5,560 bases of DNA, taken from IMG/VR virus record IMGVR_UViG_2734482785_000015; one strand, 5' to 3'. Numbering within the stretch: the first letter of the stretch is position 1; every line of letters starts with the position of its first letter. Shown one piece after another: positions 1 to 5,560 of the stretch. This DNA is from a virus (taxonomy: Duplodnaviria; Heunggongvirae; Uroviricota; Caudoviricetes). The notes beneath the pieces are model-generated. The model was not told the DNA's origin. It was given only the letters and a program-made list of their open reading frames with translations, and did not search any database. The position numbers were made by a program, and so were the translations under genes.

Positions 1-1242
1 ATGGCACGAAAAACCACTCCACTAACCATCACGGAGATCAAAAATGCACGACCAGGAGAAAAAGAATACACCCTGCAGGATGGCGGAGGATTGTTTCTTC
101 TGGTGAAGCCCTCCGGATCAAAAATCTGGCGCTTTACGTATTACCGACCCACTGACAAAAAACGAACCATCGTTAGTCTTGGTCCGCTGAATGATGTTTC
201 TCTGTCAGAAGCCAGAGAGCGACGAAACGAATACAGGGGACTTATAGCGAAGGGAGTTGACCCACAGGACCACGAACGCCGGAAACGTGAAGCAGAGAGC
301 CGGAAAAAGGGCAACACGTTCGAAAAAGTTGCCTCTGACTGGTACGAGATGAAAAAAGGCCAGAATCTCGCTTACAACACGATTAAGGATATCTGGCGAT
401 CCATGGAAAAATACGTATTCCCGTACATCGGAAAAACGCCAATAGATACCCTCACCGCTCGCCGCTTTGTTGAGATACTCACCCCCATTAAGGCGCGTGG
501 CAACCTGGAAACCCTGAAACGCGTTTTACAGCGCATCAATGAGGTGATGGATTTTGCTGCCAACAGTGGTCTGATTGACATCAACACCGCCGCGAACGTC
601 CGTAAGGCATTCCCTACCCCCACCAAAAAGCACATGCCAACCATCCGACCGGAACAGCTACCGCAGCTAATGCACGATTTATCGGTCGCCAGCATAGAAC
701 GGCAAACCAGATTGCTGATTGAGTGGCAGCTACTGACCGTAGCACGCCCCGCCGAAGCAGCCGCCACACGCTGGGAAGAAATAAACCTCGATGCCGAAAC
801 CTGGACGATTCCAGCCGGACGCATGAAGATGCGCCGTGACCATGTGATCCCCCTTTGTGGTCAGGCTATGGCTGTACTGGAAACCATGAAGCCAATCAGC
901 GCACACAGGGAACACGTTTTTCCCAGCCTTAAAAACCCGATGCTGCCAATGAGCAGCCAGACCGCTAACGCCGCATTGCGCCGGATGGGTTACGCTGGTG
1001 TGCTGGTGTCTCACGGATTACGCGCCATATTCAGCACAGCAGCGAACGAGGAAGGATTCGAACCGGACGTAATCGAGGCCGCGCTCGCACACGTGGACAC
1101 GAACGAGGTAAGGCGAGCATATAACCGAAGTAACTACCTGGAAAAACGTGTAGTACTTATGCGCTGGTGGGGTGAATTTGTGGAAACCGCAGCAACCGGA
1201 GTGACCATAGCCAGTGGTAAAAGGGGTATCCGTGCGGTGTGA
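1..1242 (+). CDS. int: Tyrosine-type site-specific integrase, P4-like family
   Basis: 413-aa ORF from ATG at 1 to TGA at 1240-1242. The N-terminus (MARKTTPLTITEIK...DGGGLFLLVKPSGSKIWRFTYY) is typical of the arm-binding region of P4-type integrases. C-terminal catalytic-type motifs are readable: ARPAE (Arg codon 745-747), HGLR (1012-1023), LAH, and Tyr374 (1120-1122) ten residues after the second His. Confidence 0.93.
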   Translation: MARKTTPLTITEIKNARPGEKEYTLQDGGGLFLLVKPSGSKIWRFTYYRPTDKKRTIVSLGPLNDVSLSEARERRNEYRGLIAKGVDPQDHERRKREAESRKKGNTFEKVASDWYEMKKGQNLAYNTIKDIWRSMEKYVFPYIGKTPIDTLTARRFVEILTPIKARGNLETLKRVLQRINEVMDFAANSGLIDINTAANVRKAFPTPTKKHMPTIRPEQLPQLMHDLSVASIERQTRLLIEWQLLTVARPAEAAATRWEEINLDAETWTIPAGRMKMRRDHVIPLCGQAMAVLETMKPISAHREHVFPSLKNPMLPMSSQTANAALRRMGYAGVLVSHGLRAIFSTAANEEGFEPDVIEAALAHVDTNEVRRAYNRSNYLEKRVVLMRWWGEFVETAATGVTIASGKRGIRAV

Positions 1243-1355: not shown

Positions 1356-1598
1356 ATGGTCTGGCACGAAAAATCATCCAATGTCTGCGGTGAAGGGCTG
1401 CAACTGGCGTTAATGGCAAATCGTGAATTCTGGTCAACATACGATCCGGAAGACAAATCAACAGCCCCCACAAAACACGAGGTAGTCAGTTTTTTACGCT
1501 CGCGTGGCGCATCGAAAAATCTGGCTGAAAGCATCGACAAGGTGCTGAGGCCCACCAGCCTTAAATGTGGTGGGCGACCTAAGAAGTGGAAACGGTAA
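1356..1598 (+). CDS. Hypothetical small protein (80 aa from ATG 1356; frame is open from GTG 1239 giving 119 aa; alternative ATG at 1413)
   Basis: Open frame with reasonable enterobacterial codon choice (ctg, gcg, cgt, gaa, aaa), ending TAA 1596-1598 and followed 5 nt later by a strong intrinsic terminator. No strong Shine-Dalgarno at any candidate start, so the start is uncertain. No family recognised. Confidence 0.4.
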   Translation: MVWHEKSSNVCGEGLQLALMANREFWSTYDPEDKSTAPTKHEVVSFLRSRGASKNLAESIDKVLRPTSLKCGGRPKKWKR

Positions 1599-1767: not shown

Positions 1768-1974
1768 ATGGAAGTAATCAGAAAAATTCTTACCCGTCAG
1801 GAAGTAAAAAATATTCTGCGCATCAAGGCAGACAGTTCGCTACAGGACATGATCAACGCCGGAAAATTCCCGAAAGGCTTCAAAATCGGTCTGCGTCGTG
1901 TTGGCTGGTATGAAGATGAAGTGCTGGCCTGGCTGAAAGAGCGCGAGGAAGAAGCGCGCGGAACGGCTGCGTAA
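1768..1974 (+). CDS. alpA: AlpA-family (P4 Vis-like, MerR-superfamily HTH) transcriptional regulator / excision activator
   Basis: 68-aa ORF with GAGG (1755-1758) 9 nt upstream of ATG 1768. The translation carries the AlpA-type pattern ILTRQEVKNILRIKADSSLQDMINAGKFPKGFKIGLRRVGWYEDEVLAWL. It lies just downstream of a P4-type integrase, as in P4-like cryptic prophages. Confidence 0.85.
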   Translation: MEVIRKILTRQEVKNILRIKADSSLQDMINAGKFPKGFKIGLRRVGWYEDEVLAWLKEREEEARGTAA

Positions 1975-2120
1975 TGGTGTGAGGCGTAACGCGATGAACA
2001 TAACAAAAAGCGCCCCGTTGCCGGAGCGCCCTTGCGAACAATTAACCTACTGCGCAAAAAATGAATCAGTGCAGTGGGATTATATCAACCGTGTAGCGAA
2101 GCGCCACAATTGCCGGATAA

Positions 2121-2153
2121 CAGGCAAAACAAAGGCCACCTGCTACGGTGGCC
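2121..2153 (-). terminator. Rho-independent terminator (minus strand)
   Basis: GC stem GGCCACC (2134-2140) / GGTGGCC (2147-2153) with a 6-nt loop. On the minus strand it is followed by UUUGUUUUG (complement of 2121-2133). No T run follows on the plus strand. Confidence 0.55.
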
Positions 2154-2256
2154 ATTCGACACAAGCTACACGTTATCCCCAACGCATGAGCATTGCCAAC
2201 AATGCCACATTTGCGGCTGGTGGGCAATGTGATCAGTGTGCTGGCTTGCTGGTGGG

Positions 2257-2451
2257 CTATTCCTGCTCTTTAACATCGTCATGCCGCGATGTTTTCCAGG
2301 TATGCGATCCCATTTTTGTGCGCCTGTACTCTTTTAAGAACTTCTCAAGGGCAAACGCACATGGCGCAAATCTTTCTGATTCATGCTCTATCTTTCTGCG
2401 CCGTCTTTTCCGTGCCGGTGATGGTGTATTGGTTGATTCTTTGTTGGTCAT
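2257..2451 (-). CDS. Questionable small basic ORF (64 aa, KRRRRK-containing) inside the transcribed 3' region of the regulator gene
   Basis: ATG-to-TAG ORF on the minus strand between the regulator stop (2509) and the minus-strand terminator. Weak or absent Shine-Dalgarno (AGG 8-9 nt upstream) and several rare codons (AGA, AGG, ATA, CGG) argue against it; position between a gene and its terminator argues mildly for it. Confidence 0.2.
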   Translation of the reverse strand: MTNKESTNTPSPARKRRRRKIEHESERFAPCAFALEKFLKEYRRTKMGSHTWKTSRHDDVKEQE

Positions 2452-2508
2452 TCTGTGTACCTGTAAAGCAATGCGCCGGAGTTCCTCACACCACGGCGAT
2501 GATAGTTA

Positions 2509-2814
2509 TTATTCTGATTCTTTGGCCTTGCGGCGCTGGAGTTCTTCACGTGCGACGGTGACGAGCTGCCCGATCTCCTCGGCAGCTTTGACTCCGATTT
2601 TTTCCACCTGCGCCAGCGCATCGAGCGAAGAAACCAGGGGATTTTCTCCGCTTCCTTCTGCCTGGCGGCGGGCGATCTCACCGCGCATGGCGGTTACTAT
2701 GAATCCGGCGTTGCTTTCACCGTCCAGTTTTACGGATTCCATGCCTTCAAAAGCATCATGTGGGATACGAATTGAAATCTGTTTTGATTTGTCGTTGATA
2801 GTGTTTTTTGCCAT
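2509..2814 (-). CDS. Putative ribbon-helix-helix (CopG/Arc/MetJ-like) DNA-binding regulator, candidate repressor of the divergent operon
   Basis: Minus-strand ORF. The best start is the ATG at 2812-2814 (101 aa, MAKNTINDKSKQISIRIP...), 6 nt downstream of AGGAGA (complement of 2821-2826). The track start at 2853 adds 13 residues without a ribosome-binding site. The N-terminus KQISIRIPHDAFEGMESVKL...SNAGFIVTAMRGEIARR fits an RHH beta-strand, helix, helix pattern. It diverges from an operator-bearing promoter region. Confidence 0.7.
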   Translation of the reverse strand: MAKNTINDKSKQISIRIPHDAFEGMESVKLDGESNAGFIVTAMRGEIARRQAEGSGENPLVSSLDALAQVEKIGVKAAEEIGQLVTVAREELQRRKAKESE

Positions 2815-2836
2815 GTGCATTCTCCTAAACAAAAGA

Positions 2837-2913
2837 TGTGATTCAGTATACACAAAAAAGAATCACAAAAAATACTTGACCTGTGATTCAGTTAAATTTA
2901 ATTTAAATCACAC
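2837..2913. promoter_or_regulatory. Divergent promoter region with two inverted-repeat operator units
   Basis: Unit 1: TGTGATTCA (2837-2845), 13-bp AT-rich spacer, AGAATCACA (2859-2867). Unit 2: TGTGATTCA (2882-2890), 14-bp spacer, AAATCACA (2905-2912). Plus-strand sigma70-like promoter: -35 TTGACC (2875-2880), 17-bp spacer, -10 TAATTT (2898-2903), overlapping unit 2. Minus-strand -10 TATACT (complement of 2845-2850) overlaps unit 1. Confidence 0.6.
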
Positions 2914-2937
2914 CTCAGTAAGAGGATGTAAACGACA

Positions 2938-2971
2938 ACGCCCCGAACTGTTTGCGGCAGTAGCGGGGCGT
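2938..2971 (+). other. Stable stem-loop in the 5' leader of the Icd-like operon (no U tract)
   Basis: ACGCCCCG (2938-2945) pairs with CGGGGCGT (2964-2971); an inner CTG/CAG pair sits within the loop. It lies between the predicted promoter and the ribosome-binding site of the first gene. It is not followed by a T run, so it is not a canonical intrinsic terminator. Confidence 0.4.
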
Positions 2972-3007
2972 CTAACCACCAACGATAGAAAGCGTATCGA
3001 GGTAGCT

Positions 3008-3214
3008 ATGAGAAATCATACCATACACCCGCAAGGGCGGGACTCGCACAACCTGAATAAATACATCTGGCGTTTTATCGCCCTGAGTACGGCACAACCG
3101 CGCGTGATTACCATCGTGGCCACCAGCGAACAGGAAGCGCGCCAGCAATCTCCTGATGGCTGCGTGATGGTATTCGCCGCCCGTATTCGCCAGGAGGTGC
3201 ACCATGTGCAATAA
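3008..3214 (+). CDS. Icd-like (Ash family) small protein; positional analogue of P4 kil
   Basis: 68-aa ORF with GAGG (2999-3002) 5 nt upstream of ATG 3008. The translation MRNHTIHPQGRDSHNLNKYIWRFIALSTAQPRVITIVATSEQEARQQSPDGCVMVFAARIRQEVHHVQ matches my recollection of the host-cell-division-inhibitor Icd-like proteins of P4-like prophages. It is the C-terminal in-frame part of the artefactual 1979-3214 track ORF. Confidence 0.8.
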   Translation: MRNHTIHPQGRDSHNLNKYIWRFIALSTAQPRVITIVATSEQEARQQSPDGCVMVFAARIRQEVHHVQ

Positions 3215-3440
3215 CACCCGTCCGGACGCAGCCGCCGAAGCTATCAAAACGCTAATGCACGCGCTGATTGATATTTCTGTTATCGCGGACATGGCACATA
3301 AGCACGCCACCAGTGAAACAGAATATGCCGGGGCTTTCGTTCCTCACTCACTGGCTGTTATGCAATTTAGTGCTGATATGGCGCTGAATGAGGCAGGCAA
3401 AATTCTTACCGCAGATATTCAAGGGGCGCACCATGCATGA
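3204..3440 (+). CDS. Hypothetical protein (78 aa)
   Basis: ATG 3204 is preceded by GGAGG (3194-3198) and overlaps the Icd-like stop by 11 nt, consistent with translational coupling. No family recognised. Confidence 0.6.
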   Translation: MCNNTRPDAAAEAIKTLMHALIDISVIADMAHKHATSETEYAGAFVPHSLAVMQFSADMALNEAGKILTADIQGAHHA

Positions 3441-3660
3441 TGACCGTTATTTTAAATCAATGAGCCATGCAGAAAATGCGCTGACTAACAGTGAATGCTT
3501 GCGGCAAATATTGCTTATCTGGCTTGATGGTTTAAGTGATGCGCCGGAAGATGAACGTGAATCTAATCTTGCTGGTGCGTTTATTTCATTACTCGATACG
3601 GTAATCGTCGAATTAAATAAAGCGATCGAAATTCACGATAAAAAAATAAACGCGGAATAA
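3433..3660 (+). CDS. Hypothetical acidic protein (75 aa from ATG 3433; track start 3388 is an in-frame alternative)
   Basis: ATG 3433 is preceded by AAGGGG (3421-3426) and overlaps the stop of the preceding gene (ATGCATGA, 3433-3440). The upstream ATG at 3388 has no Shine-Dalgarno. No family recognised. Confidence 0.55.
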   Translation: MHDDRYFKSMSHAENALTNSECLRQILLIWLDGLSDAPEDERESNLAGAFISLLDTVIVELNKAIEIHDKKINAE

Positions 3661-3665
3661 AAACC

Positions 3666-3953
3666 ATGAAACAGAAAAATTCTGGCTTTACTGCCAGCGG
3701 CCCCGCTCGGTCTGAAATCCGCCCCGGCGATATTTTCAAAGATAACTACGGCGGCACGATAACGATAAAAGACGTGGAAGAACGGCGCATCACCTACCGT
3801 CGTGAAGGCTACGACTATGACTGCGTGATGCCTGTTTATCAGTTCCGGCGTGATTTTAAGCTGGTGGGCCATCGTAAAGCCGTAAATCAGAAACGTGCAG
3901 CAAGCTATATCCGCAAAATCCGTGAAATGCTGGTCGCAGGGGGTAAGAAATGA
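3666..3953 (+). CDS. Hypothetical protein (95 aa), tentatively DUF4222-like
   Basis: ATG 3666 lies 5 nt after the previous stop; the TGA stop at 3951-3953 overlaps the ATG of the downstream replication gene (ATGA). The motif ITYRREGYDYDCVMPVYQFRRDF resembles small proteins seen upstream of primases in enterobacterial P4-like islands; this is recollection only. Confidence 0.6.
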   Translation: MKQKNSGFTASGPARSEIRPGDIFKDNYGGTITIKDVEERRITYRREGYDYDCVMPVYQFRRDFKLVGHRKAVNQKRAASYIRKIREMLVAGGKK

Positions 3954-5560
3954 AACTGGCACCGAACGTAAAACTGTTACCGAAAGATAAAGGCGAGGAT
4001 GCAGTGATTTTTGCGGGGGATGACGCATACAGCCATGCAGAGCATTACATGCAGGGCGGAGAAGCCAGAAAGCGCGGCGACAAAATACCACCTGTTTATC
4101 TCGGACGGCGTGACCTGGGTAATCTGGAAAACCTGCGTATTGTGGATGAGGGTCGGTCACGCGCCATCGTCAGACGTGCCGGAAAACTGGATGACAAACT
4201 GGCGCTACAGATTGAAACCCTGCTGGCAGTGGCTGGTGTTAAAGAAGCCTGTTTTTGTGACGAGAACGGCGATTTACTGGAGGACTGGACACCACAGCTT
4301 GCCCGACTGAAAGACGAATACGAGCGCGGGGAAAGTCTTGTGTTGCCCTTAAAGAAAAAAGCCACCACAAGCCCGGGTGATGATGAATTAAAGCCCCGCG
4401 TTGAAAGCCGCGCCGATGGTGTTTTCTGGGTAACGCCCAAAGTGGATAAGCAGTCAGGCGAAATTATCCGGCCTGAAACGTGGTTATGTTCCACGCTTGA
4501 ACTACTGGGAACGGGGACAATCGGCAAAGAGCATTACCGCGTGATGCGCTGGAAAAAGCCAGCAAATCATGAAGTCATCACAATGGCGATTCCGTGCGGT
4601 GGCATTGGCGACCGTGACGGCTGGCGGCTACTGAAAGACCACGGACTGAACGTAACAACCAACGGTAAATACAGAGCTATCCTGGCTGACTGGATGCAGT
4701 TAAGCGGAAGTCATGAGGAATGGCAGTTAAGCACAACAACGGGCTGGCATTTTGGCGCGTACATCATGCCGGACGGTTCGGTCATTGGTGAGTCTGAAAA
4801 ACAGATTCTGTTTACCGGAAAAACAGCCGCTGTTAATGGCTATTCCGTGGCAGGAACGGCGGAGGGCTGGCGCGATACCGTTGCGCGGCTGGCTGGAGGC
4901 AATCCCTTAATGATGCTGGGTGTGGCGGTATCGCTATCTGCACCATTAATCGGGCTGGTGGGGGCTGACGGCTTCGGGGTACATCTTTTCGAACAGTCCA
5001 CAGCAGGGAAAACCACCACACAGAACATCGCATCAAGTTTATGGGGAGAGCCGGACGCACAACGGCTGACCTGGTACGGTACAGCGTTAGGTATCGCCAA
5101 CGAGGCAGAGGCACACAACGACGGGCTGTTACCCCTGGATGAAATAGGCCAGGCTGGAAACGCGCGGGAGGTGTCAACGTCTGCTTATACGCTGTTTAAC
5201 GGTTCCGGGAAATTACAGGGGGCGAAGGACGGCGGCAACAGGGAGATAAAACACTGGCGAACGGTGGCAATCAGTACCGGAGAAATGGACGTTGAAACAT
5301 TCCTCAAAACGGAGGGGATAAAAGTCAAGGCGGGGCAGCTTGTCCGCCTGCTTAACGTGCCGATGGAAAAAGCCACACAATTTCACGAATACAGCACCGG
5401 AAAGGCGCACGCAGACGCGTTAAAAGATGCCTGGACAGAAAATCACGGGGCGGCGGGTCGTGAATGGGTTAAATGGCTGGCAGACCACCAGCAGGAGGCA
5501 AAGGACACGGTAAGGGCATGCCGTGAACGGTGGCGCAACCTGATACCGGAGAGCTACGGC
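3950..5560 (+). CDS. Primase/helicase-like replication protein (P-loop NTPase, P4 alpha-like / DUF927-like), 3'-truncated by the window end
   Basis: Frame 2 is open for 537 codons from ATG 3950 to the last base of the window; I translated it by hand and found no stop. Deviant Walker A STAGKTTT at 4997-5020 and Walker B LLPLDE at 5126-5143. Antisense and alternate-frame track ORFs in this span are short and compositionally odd. It is absent from the supplied track only because it lacks an in-window stop. Confidence 0.85.
   Translation, partial: MKLAPNVKLLPKDKGEDAVIFAGDDAYSHAEHYMQGGEARKRGDKIPPVYLGRRDLGNLENLRIVDEGRSRAIVRRAGKLDDKLALQIETLLAVAGVKEACFCDENGDLLEDWTPQLARLKDEYERGESLVLPLKKKATTSPGDDELKPRVESRADGVFWVTPKVDKQSGEIIRPETWLCSTLELLGTGTIGKEHYRVMRWKKPANHEVITMAIPCGGIGDRDGWRLLKDHGLNVTTNGKYRAILADWMQLSGSHEEWQLSTTTGWHFGAYIMPDGSVIGESEKQILFTGKTAAVNGYSVAGTAEGWRDTVARLAGGNPLMMLGVAVSLSAPLIGLVGADGFGVHLFEQSTAGKTTTQNIASSLWGEPDAQRLTWYGTALGIANEAEAHNDGLLPLDEIGQAGNAREVSTSAYTLFNGSGKLQGAKDGGNREIKHWRTVAISTGEMDVETFLKTEGIKVKAGQLVRLLNVPMEKATQFHEYSTGKAHADALKDAWTENHGAAGREWVKWLADHQQEAKDTVRACRERWRNLIPESYG

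What the first reader, a model, noticed from the sequence alone, without database searches (positions are those of the whole stretch)
3204..3953. Three small overlapping unknown proteins between the Icd-like gene and the primase, in the position of P4 helper-manipulation genes
ORFs of 78, 75 and 95 aa are chained by overlapping start/stop codons (3204 overlapping 3212-3214, ATGCATGA at 3433-3440, ATGA at 3950-3953), which suggests translational coupling. In P4 the genes between kil and the alpha primase include epsilon, which derepresses the helper prophage by binding its repressor. These small proteins are therefore candidates for helper-phage derepression or interference, or anti-defence functions. 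None is recognisable from sequence alone.
Basis: partly seen in the sequence, partly recalled or inferred. Interest (0 to 1): 0.5.

Follow-up and report, generated by a model that had tools for sequence, protein, structure and literature searches.

The report
PICI early operon: RgdR-family plus two small proteins
The three small genes are real and sit, tightly chained, just ahead of the primase of an E. coli phage-inducible chromosomal island; the third belongs to the already known RgdR (DUF4222) regulator family and the other two are conserved acidic helical proteins of unknown role, so this is an ordinary, largely described satellite module and not a P4-type helper-derepression cassette.

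Summary
ORFs 3204-3440 (78 aa), 3433-3660 (75 aa) and 3666-3953 (95 aa) exist with the stated overlaps; ORF2 and ORF3 are separated by 5 nt, not overlapping. Their frames are open in all 51, 40 and 58 homologues examined. Pooled pN/pS is 0.41-0.57, against 1.0-1.3 in the other forward frames. Junction geometry is conserved.

The element is a Gram-negative PICI (int, alpA, Icd-like, pri-rep; near-identical islands at tRNA-Pro carry SSB, PerC and terS-like genes), not a P4-like satellite.

ORF3 is recognisable: Pfam DUF4222, E=6e-23, and 56-60% identical to RgdR (ECs1581/C1493). RgdR is a characterised regulator already reported in all analysed E. coli PICIs, always directly upstream of the primase. 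Its model is a Tudor/KOW-like barrel plus a basic helix.

ORF2 is an acidic two-helix hairpin. Its family precedes rgdR in 79 of 83 loci.

ORF1 belongs to a shufflable cassette and also occurs in a lambdoid prophage.

None of the three resembles P4 epsilon.

By-product: an unannotated DUF4222 ORF overlaps E. coli K-12 e14 ymfM in another frame.

The parts
1..1242 (+). Tyrosine integrase of the island
   Evidence: Pfam Phage_integrase, Phage_int_M and Arm-DNA-bind_3. In the near-identical islands L001 and L002 it lies next to tRNA-Pro, between yejM and yejO.
1768..1974 (+). AlpA-family HTH regulator (the PICI activator family)
   Evidence: Pfam Phage_AlpA E=4.5e-8. The role of AlpA in EcCICFT073 is taken from PMC6092414.
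2509..2814 (-). YlcI/YnfO-family protein, divergent from the operon
   Evidence: NCBIfam NF041551 E=3.7e-18 and phrog_6522 E=2e-58. Minus-strand terminator-like hairpins lie downstream at 2153-2134 and 2033-2006.
2815..3007. Divergent control region. It holds a candidate -35 TTGACC at about 2875-2880 (read by eye; the consensus scan reported no promoter here), two operator-like inverted repeats (2837-2867 TGTGATTC-N15-GAATCACA and about 2882-2914), and a GC hairpin at 2938-2971.
   Evidence: the repeat finder pairs I8, I4, I9 and direct repeat D1; sequence. Function was not tested.
3008..3214 (+). Icd-like protein, first gene of the operon
   Evidence: NCBIfam NF033153 E=8.6e-20 and phrog_6196 E=6.6e-44. 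It is 92% identical to the EcCICFT073 Icd-like protein.
3204..3440 (+). ORF1: 78 aa, acidic (pI 5.5), family phrog_5146. It is a member of a shufflable cassette.
   Evidence: phrog_5146 E=2.9e-37. 232 homologue clusters, mostly E. coli. 43% identical to EcCICFT073 C_RS06965. Pooled pN/pS 0.41, frame open in 51/51. Natural in-frame fusions to the CFT_6970 family occur. Also present in a lambdoid prophage, L069.
3433..3660 (+). ORF2: 75 aa, acidic (pI 4.6, net charge -8), two-helix hairpin, family phrog_2196. It is the conserved upstream neighbour of rgdR.
   Evidence: phrog_2196 E=2.3e-23. AF2 pLDDT 91, helices 2-33 and 38-74. 39% identical to EcCICFT073 C_RS06975. The family precedes rgdR in 79/83 loci. 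Only about 10 small-protein representative clusters exist among 1.84 billion proteins.
3666..3953 (+). ORF3: 95 aa, basic (pI 10.1, net charge +10.6), RgdR-family DUF4222 protein
3950..5560 (+). Pri-rep (DUF927 primase/helicase). Its start overlaps the ORF3 stop as ATGA, and it is cut by the window end.
   Evidence: Pfam DUF927 E=1e-45 and phrog_1139 'DNA primase' E=6.7e-131. 80% identical to the Sakai OI-51 primase.

Best explanation
The three ORFs are the middle genes of the early (replication/regulation) operon of a Gram-negative phage-inducible chromosomal island. The order is control region - Icd-like - ORF1 - ORF2 - ORF3 - pri-rep.

Shown:
- The genes are co-oriented and have no internal promoter-like or terminator-like site.
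- The start/stop geometry that would allow coupled translation is conserved.
- ORF3 is a member of the RgdR/DUF4222 family.
- ORF2 is an acidic helical hairpin whose family almost always sits 5-7 nt upstream of rgdR.
- ORF1 belongs to a variable cassette of one to four small genes between the Icd-like gene and the ORF2-family/rgdR pair.

Taken from the literature on homologues:
- RgdR binds DNA without sequence specificity, activates the LEE1 promoter and represses motility.
- PICI early genes are switched on by AlpA once a helper phage is active.

Inferred:
- ORF3 acts as a small, basic, nucleic-acid-binding modulator of transcription. It would be made in fixed proportion to the primase when the island is induced, and at low level otherwise.
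- Its Tudor/KOW-like barrel, flanked by a basic disordered N-tail and a basic C-helix, is the working part.
- ORF2, of opposite charge and co-conserved with it, most likely binds ORF3 or shares its target and tunes it.
- ORF1 is an exchangeable accessory protein-binding factor shared with temperate phages.
- None of the three acts like P4 epsilon.
For: PICI identity:
- int, AlpA, Icd-like and DUF927 genes are present.
- Islands that are 96-99% identical sit at tRNA-Pro and carry SSB, ProQ/FinO, PerC and terS-like genes and no virion genes.

Operon and coupling.

ORF3 as RgdR family:
- Pfam DUF4222 E=6.4e-23 and 56-60% identity over the full length.
- It has the same position, with ATGA onto the primase, in Sakai OI-51 and EcCICFT073 and in 84/85 loci.
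- RgdR function comes from PMC3378721. [quoted passage not shown]

ORF2 and ORF3 as a pair:
- Net charges are -8.2 and +10.6.
- An ORF2-family HMM hits the ORF directly upstream of rgdR in 79/83 loci, with 5-7 nt gaps in 77.
- The pair is present in three PICI lineages with different primases.

Cassette behaviour of ORF1: architectures Icd-[A]-O1-[B]-O2-Rgd-Pri, Icd-to-rgdR distances of 220-910 nt, O1-B fusions, and presence in prophage L069.
Against: - No experiment exists on this island or on any ORF1 or ORF2 homologue.
- The ORF2 hairpin has no significant structural match (best E=0.94).
- An ORF2-ORF3 interaction is inferred only from adjacency and charge. RgdR alone complemented its mutant in trans, and phage DUF4222 genes lack an ORF2-like neighbour.
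- ORF3 has PGD where RgdR has the RGD motif shown to matter for T3SS activation.
- The native role of RgdR in the PICI life cycle is unknown. Its constant position in front of replication initiators could instead point to a replication function.
- The locus set is biased: it was fetched by similarity to ORF1 or ORF2 and contains duplicates.
Confidence: 0.55

Rival explanations
1. Replication-accessory reading. ORF3, possibly with ORF2, is a cofactor of replication initiation. It might prepare or mark the origin, or assist loading of the initiator/primase-helicase. Its effects on LEE and motility would then be side effects of a non-specific DNA binder.
For: DUF4222 genes lie directly upstream of replication initiator genes of unrelated types, and their stop overlaps the initiator's start. 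The types are:
- DUF927 pri-rep (window, Sakai);
- the CFT073-type primase, 28% identical;
- lambda-O-like 'primosomal protein' in e14, SfIV, SfII and Klebsiella phages, with an 11-nt overlap;
- a different replication protein in Kp4882-3.
ATGA coupling to pri occurs in 84/85 loci. RgdR binds DNA non-specifically.
Against: The partner initiators are non-homologous, so a specific protein-protein contact is unlikely. In mEp460 the DUF4222 ORF is separated from the replication gene by other coding sequence. No replication phenotype has been reported. In lambdoid phages the position before the replication genes is also where the last early regulators sit: in SfII the gene before ymfM is annotated 'cII: protein YmfL'.
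Confidence: 0.2
2. ORF1 and/or ORF2 are small protein inhibitors. They would be anti-defence factors, or factors that interfere with the helper phage or take over host proteins, and they would act independently of ORF3.
For: They are small, acidic and (ORF2) a helical hairpin. The cassette is mosaic: members are present or absent, and one to four genes lie between the Icd-like gene and rgdR. Purifying selection is only moderate, with dN/dS about 0.3-0.35. They are narrowly distributed in Enterobacteriaceae mobile elements. PMC6092414 notes that the EcCICFT073 genes responsible for interference were not identified.
Against: There is no match to PADLOC, Pfam, NCBIfam or PDB sequences and no significant fold match. 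The strict pairing of the ORF2 family with rgdR argues for a joint function. No phenotype data exist.
Confidence: 0.2
3. One reading: one of the three is a functional analogue of P4 epsilon that derepresses a helper prophage by binding its repressor.
For: The genes occupy the same relative position as epsilon in the P4 left operon, downstream of an Ash/Icd-type ORF and upstream of the primase, with short overlaps. Functional analogues need not share sequence.
Against: There is no similarity to epsilon or to its Pfam family PF25738. The island is a PICI, and in studied relatives the helper (lambda, phi80) induces the island via AlpA. The ORF1 family occurs in a temperate prophage, which has no helper. 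ORF3 belongs to a family with a different documented activity.
Confidence: 0.05
4. The ORFs are chance open frames or mis-called genes.
For: They are short and, for ORF1 and ORF2, unannotated in function.
Against: The frames are open in all homologues, and pN/pS is well below that of the alternative frames. PHROG and Pfam matches are strong. Junctions are conserved.
Confidence: 0.01

Closest known systems
RgdR (ECs1581 of E. coli O157:H7 Sakai OI-51/Sp7) and C1493 of EcCICFT073; Pfam DUF4222
   Same: ORF3 is 56-60% identical to both over the full length, with a highly conserved core (residues about 20-68), basic termini and a similar pI (about 10). The gene position is identical: last small gene of the operon, with its stop overlapping the primase start as ATGA.
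   Different: ORF3 is 95 aa, not 99, and its C-terminal third differs. Position 20 is Pro (R-P-G-D) instead of the Arg of the RGD motif. RPGD is in fact the commonest form among the 174 family members collected here (116, against 27 with RGD). No functional data exist for this variant.
Early operons of the characterised E. coli PICIs EcCICFT073 and EcCIEDL933/OI-51
   Same: All share the same order, Icd-like - small overlapping ORFs - ORF2-family - rgdR - primase, and a divergent YlcI/YnfO gene and alpA lie upstream.
   Different: This island sits at tRNA-Pro (yejM-yejO) rather than next to phoQ. It has two small ORFs between Icd and rgdR; CFT073 has four and Sakai three. ORF1 has no homologue in Sakai. 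The primase is the Sakai type (80% identity), not the CFT073 type (28%).
Satellite phage P4 left operon (Ash/Icd-type ORF, epsilon, orf151, orf106, alpha)
   Same: An Icd-like first gene is followed by a chain of small overlapping ORFs and then a primase. An AlpA/Vis-type HTH lies nearby (35% identity over 37 aa).
   Different: No detectable homology links ORF1-3 to epsilon, orf151 or orf106. The best result is orf151 N-terminus against DUF4222, with hhalign probability 11.7%. The primases are not detectably related (blastp E=0.11). No sid, psu or delta genes are present.
DUF4222 ORFs of lambdoid phages (e14, SfII, SfIV, Klebsiella phages)
   Same: They share the same Pfam domain (SfIV ORF E=3.2e-19) and also lie immediately before the replication initiator gene, overlapping its start.
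   Different: They are 59-76 aa, lack the long basic N- and C-terminal extensions, and are about 35% identical to ORF3. They lie in an alternative frame over the 3' half of ymfM and are mostly unannotated. No ORF2-like neighbour is present.
RNA-polymerase-binding Tudor/KOW-type barrels (UvrD/PcrA C-terminal domain, CarD RID, NusG/Spt5/RfaH KOW)

Membership tests
RgdR / DUF4222 (Pfam PF13973) | Match to the DUF4222 profile above Pfam's gathering score | tested here: met
   ORF3 scores 80.5 bits against a cut-off of 27, E=6.4e-23, covering profile positions 2-52 of 53.
RgdR / DUF4222 (Pfam PF13973) | Full-length similarity to the characterised proteins ECs1581 and C1493 | tested here: met
   55.6-60% identity over 92-99 residues; blastp E=2.5e-34 and 1.8e-37.
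RgdR / DUF4222 (Pfam PF13973) | RGD tripeptide at residues 20-22, the motif that named the protein and matters for T3SS activation | tested here: not met
   ORF3 has P20-G21-D22, preceded by R19. Only 27 of the 174 collected family members have RGD, so the motif does not define the family.
RgdR / DUF4222 (Pfam PF13973) | Activation of LEE1/T3SS, repression of motility, non-specific DNA binding | not testable with these tools
   These are known only for ECs1581 and C1493 (PMC3378721).
Gram-negative PICI | Integrase, AlpA-family regulator and pri-rep gene in the prophage-like order | tested here: met
   Pfam hits for all three, in the order int - alpA - ... - pri.
Gram-negative PICI | Island of about 10-15 kb at its own att site, without virion structural or lysis genes, often with a terS/rpp-like gene | tested here: met
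   The window itself ends inside pri. The 96-99% identical islands L001 and L002 span roughly 13-15 kb between tRNA-Pro and yejO. They are annotated with SSB, ProQ/FinO, PerC and a small terminase subunit, and no capsid, tail or lysis genes.
Gram-negative PICI | Helper-phage-dependent induction, replication and packaging | not testable with these tools
   Shown only for relatives such as EcCICFT073 (PMC6092414).
P4-like satellite | sid, psu and delta genes and an alpha-type primase | tested here: not met
   No such genes are annotated in L001 or L002. P4 alpha against the window primase gives blastp E=0.11.
P4 epsilon ('Derepression', Pfam PF25738) | Match to the epsilon family profile or to P4 epsilon itself | tested here: not met
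   P4 epsilon hits PF25738 at E=4e-50. ORF1-3 give no PF25738 hit at E<=1. hhalign probability is 4.7% (ORF1 family) and 0.14% (ORF3 family). The best blastp result is E=0.049 over 19 residues.

The most novel reading that the evidence does not exclude
The acidic ORF2 hairpin and the basic RgdR-type ORF3 form a two-component switch made together with the primase. ORF3 uses its Tudor/KOW-like barrel to engage RNA polymerase or nucleoid-bound DNA, and so reprograms host transcription (and perhaps licenses origin firing) when the island or phage enters its lytic programme. ORF2 acts as its antagonist or chaperone.

The same DUF4222 module, hidden in an alternative frame inside ymfM, would then be a widespread and overlooked early function of lambdoid phages, possibly contributing to phenotypes now assigned to YmfM.
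Probability: 0.15. Interest if true: 0.6.

Novelty: new member of a known kind. Interest (0 to 1): 0.27.

Why it matters
As it stands the finding matters little. It re-describes the early operon of a common E. coli PICI, and its third gene belongs to a named regulator family.

Two points have some value. First, RgdR-family genes are always the last gene before the replication initiator, in PICIs and in lambdoid phages, and in PICIs they are paired with an acidic hairpin protein. This gives a concrete, testable handle on the unknown native role of RgdR, which has so far been studied only as a virulence regulator. Second, the small cassette between the Icd-like gene and rgdR is a shuffling hotspot that could hold helper- or host-directed factors.

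Tried and rejected
- The scan of species-representative genomes with the RgdR alignment returned only 2 loci; the patterns were too narrow.
- Profile searches of the three families against PDB sequences gave nothing meaningful.
- PADLOC gave no hit. NCBIfam gave none for the three ORFs.
- Foldseek of the ORF2 hairpin against the PDB gave only generic coiled hairpins, with E>=0.94. Rop-like or DNA-mimic ideas therefore remain untested guesses.
- BFVD search with the ORF3 model returned uncharacterised small barrels and DUF1653 proteins.
- The exhaustive HMMER search with ORF2 returned a few giant repetitive proteins (1,400-4,600 aa, 3-11 short stretches). I regard these as low-complexity matches, not relatives.
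- hhalign among the cassette families (O1, O2, A, B, Icd, Rgd) showed no relationship, with all probabilities at or below 1%. The idea that they are diverged paralogues was dropped.
- Rfam found no RNA family in or near the finding, only a sub-threshold isrD-like hairpin at 2128-2170.
- The EcCIMP1 paper (PMC11773190) was read for gene functions but does not concern these genes.
Full report
**Observation**

The window encodes, on the + strand:
- an integrase (1-1242);
- an 80-aa conserved hypothetical protein (1356-1598);
- an AlpA-family HTH (1768-1974);
- an Icd-like protein (3008-3214);
- three small ORFs at 3204-3440, 3433-3660 and 3666-3953;
- a DUF927 primase/helicase from 3950 to the window end.

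A YlcI/YnfO-family gene lies on the - strand at 2509-2814.

ORF1 starts 11 nt before the Icd-like stop. ORF2 starts within ATGCATGA, 8 nt before the ORF1 stop. The primase ATG forms ATGA with the ORF3 stop. ORF2 and ORF3 are separated by 5 nt and do not overlap. The mechanical ORF2 begins at an upstream ATG (3388) that has no SD and is not used in homologues.

**Are these real genes?**

I collected about 100 related loci: IMG/VR contigs fetched by ORF1 or ORF2 similarity, E. coli islands, and the Sakai and CFT073 islands.

- In every unique homologue the annotated frame is open (51/51, 40/40, 58/58).
- Pooled pN/pS is 0.41, 0.57 and 0.56. The other two forward frames give 1.0-1.3 and always contain stops.
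- The two long antisense ORFs seen in the window are broken in most relatives.
- Median pairwise dN/dS is 0.31, 0.35 and 0.42.
- Junction geometry is conserved: -11 nt in 62/78, -8 nt in 19/19, +5 nt in 59/61, and ATGA in 84/85.
- No promoter-like or forward terminator-like site lies inside the chain.

The loci are not independent and some are duplicates, so these counts describe consistency, not numbers of events.

**What the element is**

The two closest complete E. coli islands (96-99% identity over the shared parts) sit next to tRNA-Pro, between yejM and yejO. Downstream of the primase they carry a small hypothetical gene, SSB, ProQ/FinO, PerC regulators and a small-terminase-like gene. 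They carry no capsid, tail or lysis genes and no sid/psu/delta.

With int, alpA and pri-rep in prophage order, this is the Gram-negative PICI layout described in PMC6092414. It is not a P4-like satellite. The P4 alpha primase is not detectably related to this primase.

**ORF3**

ORF3 is not unrecognisable. It matches Pfam DUF4222 at E=6.4e-23. It is identical to a RefSeq 'DUF4222 domain-containing protein' seen on 155 contigs.

The one characterised member of the family is RgdR (ECs1581, OI-51 of E. coli O157:H7). RgdR is a 99-aa basic protein that activates LEE1 and type III secretion, represses motility and binds DNA non-specifically. The CFT073 orthologue C1493 behaves similarly (PMC3378721; PMC10877973). 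[quoted passage not shown]

ORF3 is 56-60% identical to both proteins over the full length. In Sakai and CFT073 rgdR occupies exactly the same place: it is the last small gene, and its stop overlaps the primase start.

ORF3 has R-P-G-D where RgdR has the eponymous RGD. Among 174 collected family members, RPGD is the majority form (116) and RGD the minority (27).

**ORF2**

ORF2 belongs to phrog_2196. It is a confident two-helix hairpin (pLDDT 91, helices 2-33 and 38-74) and strongly acidic (pI 4.6, net charge -8).

The family is small. The word-indexed search found 8 clusters, and an exhaustive HMMER scan of 1.84 billion representatives found about 10 small-protein clusters.

It is 39% identical to the gene directly upstream of rgdR in EcCICFT073. 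It is weakly similar to the one upstream of rgdR in Sakai.

An HMM of the family hits the ORF immediately upstream of rgdR in 79 of 83 loci, with gaps of 5-7 nt in 77. This includes loci where simple BLAST had suggested the family was absent. The acidic hairpin and the basic RgdR-type protein therefore form a conserved pair in these islands.

No structural or sequence relative of known function was found.

**ORF1**

ORF1 belongs to phrog_5146 and has 232 homologue clusters, nearly all E. coli. It is 43% identical to C_RS06965 of EcCICFT073 and has no homologue in Sakai.

It is part of a variable cassette. Architectures follow Icd-[A]-O1-[B]-O2-Rgd-Pri, with one to four small genes and Icd-to-rgdR distances of 220-910 nt. 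In about ten loci ORF1 is fused in frame to the B family (CFT_6970-like), giving 150-156-aa proteins. This explains its match to the first half of phrog_2512.

It also occurs on a 44.6-kb prophage contig (L069). There it lies downstream of a YdaS-like HTH, an ORF6N/KilAC antirepressor and two Ash/Rha proteins, with the same 11-nt overlap. It lies upstream of a weak DUF4222-like ORF and of DnaC-like and DnaB genes. It is therefore not satellite-specific.

**Comparison with P4**

The P4 left operon is an Ash/Icd-type ORF (annotated as cI), then epsilon (95 aa), orf151, orf106 (DUF5375) and alpha, with 8-nt overlaps between the first three. A related island still carries an ash pseudogene in front of the Icd-like gene.

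Epsilon, however, belongs to Pfam PF25738, and none of the three ORFs hits that family. hhalign probabilities against epsilon are 4.7% for the ORF1 family and 0.14% for the ORF3 family. ORF2 gave no blastp hit to epsilon at E<=10 and was not run through hhalign. The only faint signal is the orf151 N-terminus against DUF4222 (probability 11.7%), which I leave as inconclusive.

In the studied E. coli PICIs the helper induces the island through AlpA. Nothing suggests that the island derepresses the helper.

**Mechanism**

Shown:
- One operon with conserved coupling geometry.
- ORF3 is an RgdR-family protein with a small barrel and basic tails.
- ORF2 is its conserved acidic neighbour.
- ORF1 is a mobile cassette gene.

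From the literature: RgdR homologues bind DNA non-specifically and alter transcription of LEE1 and motility genes.

Inferred:
- ORF3 is a nucleic-acid-binding transcription modulator made in step with the primase.
- ORF2 binds or tunes it.
- ORF1 is an exchangeable protein-binding accessory.

The main rival is a replication-accessory role for ORF3. DUF4222 genes sit directly before replication initiators of unrelated types, and their stop overlaps the initiator's start. This holds in PICIs with two primase types and in lambdoid phages with O-like and other initiators. I cannot separate these readings with the tools at hand.

**By-product**

In e14, SfII, SfIV and related phages, the DUF4222 homologue is an unannotated ORF in a third frame. 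In K-12 it lies at L102 7002-7181 (59 aa); the SfIV equivalent scores Pfam E=3.2e-19. It covers the 3' 160 nt of ymfM ('cell division inhibitor YmfM') and the first 11 nt of the replication gene.

- Among K-12, SfIV and 720R4, all six distinct substitutions in the overlap are synonymous in the DUF4222 frame and non-synonymous in the YmfM frame. The two substitutions upstream of the overlap are synonymous for YmfM.
- Against a Klebsiella phage (73% nucleotide identity), the DUF4222 frame is 86% identical. YmfM is 63% identical in residues 1-60 and 48% in residues 61-112. Both frames stay open.
- In mEp460 the DUF4222 ORF is embedded in the alternative frame of the antirepressor-like gp41.
- The ymfM study cloned the annotated ORF, and I found no frame control in its text.

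**Verdict**

The finding is a new member of a known kind and of low to moderate interest.

Noticed in passing
L102 7002-7181 (E. coli K-12 NC_000913.3 1204001-1204180); also L099 3438-3659 (SfIV) and L105 1677-1856: An unannotated DUF4222 ORF lies in an alternative frame over the 3' half of e14 ymfM ('cell division inhibitor YmfM') and over the start of the replication gene. All six distinct substitutions in the overlap are synonymous in the DUF4222 frame and non-synonymous for YmfM. Against a Klebsiella phage, the DUF4222 frame is 86% identical, whereas YmfM residues 61-112 are 48% identical.
   Followed up: partly
L108 2414-2629 (phage mEp460); Stx-phage hits: In mEp460 the DUF4222 ORF is embedded, in another frame, inside gp41. 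gp41 is a 383-aa antirepressor-like protein whose N-terminus resembles YmfM. In many Stx phages the same DNA segment lies under genes annotated Ant/Rha.
   Followed up: partly
L040 2058-2525, L034 6001-6465, L029 3091-3543 and about 8 more loci: Natural in-frame fusions of the ORF1 family to the CFT_6970-like family give 150-156-aa proteins (= phrog_2512). This suggests the two cassette proteins act together.
   Followed up: partly
window 2815-3007: The divergent control region holds two operator-like inverted repeats (TGTGATTC-N15-GAATCACA at 2837-2867, and a second at about 2882-2914 overlapping a TTGACC -35 candidate). A GC-rich hairpin lies at 2938-2971 in the leader of the Icd-like operon.
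   Followed up: no
window 1979-3214 (+) against 2257-2814 (-): A 411-codon open frame runs in phase into the Icd-like gene. At 2195-2626 it resembles Sakai ECs_1576 (48% over 144 aa), antisense to the YlcI/YnfO gene and its neighbour. A related island has an 'ash family' pseudogene here (L103 3121-3711). This is either a decayed Ash domain or a conflict between old and new annotations.
   Followed up: partly
L104 7440-7895 (P4 orf151): The N-terminus of P4 orf151 aligns weakly with the DUF4222 core (PGEIYR... against RPGDIF...; hhalign probability 11.7%, blastp E=0.1). This may be a trace of deeper synteny between the P4 and PICI early operons.
   Followed up: partly
L024 1401-1613, L067 6230-6442, L053 2778-2990 and others: Further cassette families fill the slot between the Icd-like gene and rgdR in related islands. 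One example is a 70-aa protein beginning MNNNEAHLSVVLNVPSDYTGRV....
   Followed up: no
window 2128-2170 (-) and 2006-2033 (-): Two terminator-like hairpins lie on the minus strand downstream of the YlcI/YnfO unit. The first gives a sub-threshold Rfam isrD match (22.4 bits, E=0.43).
   Followed up: no
window 1356-1598 (+): A conserved 80-aa hypothetical protein lies between int and alpA. It is 100% identical in L001 and L002 and is followed by a terminator-like hairpin at 1603-1628.
   Followed up: no
L101 8986-9204 (Escherichia phage vB_KppS-Ant, a 16.5-kb 'phage' record): An ORF2-family gene lies directly upstream of the primase with no rgdR between them. The record carries capsid, portal and terminase genes and looks like a capsid-forming PICI deposited as a phage.
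   Followed up: no
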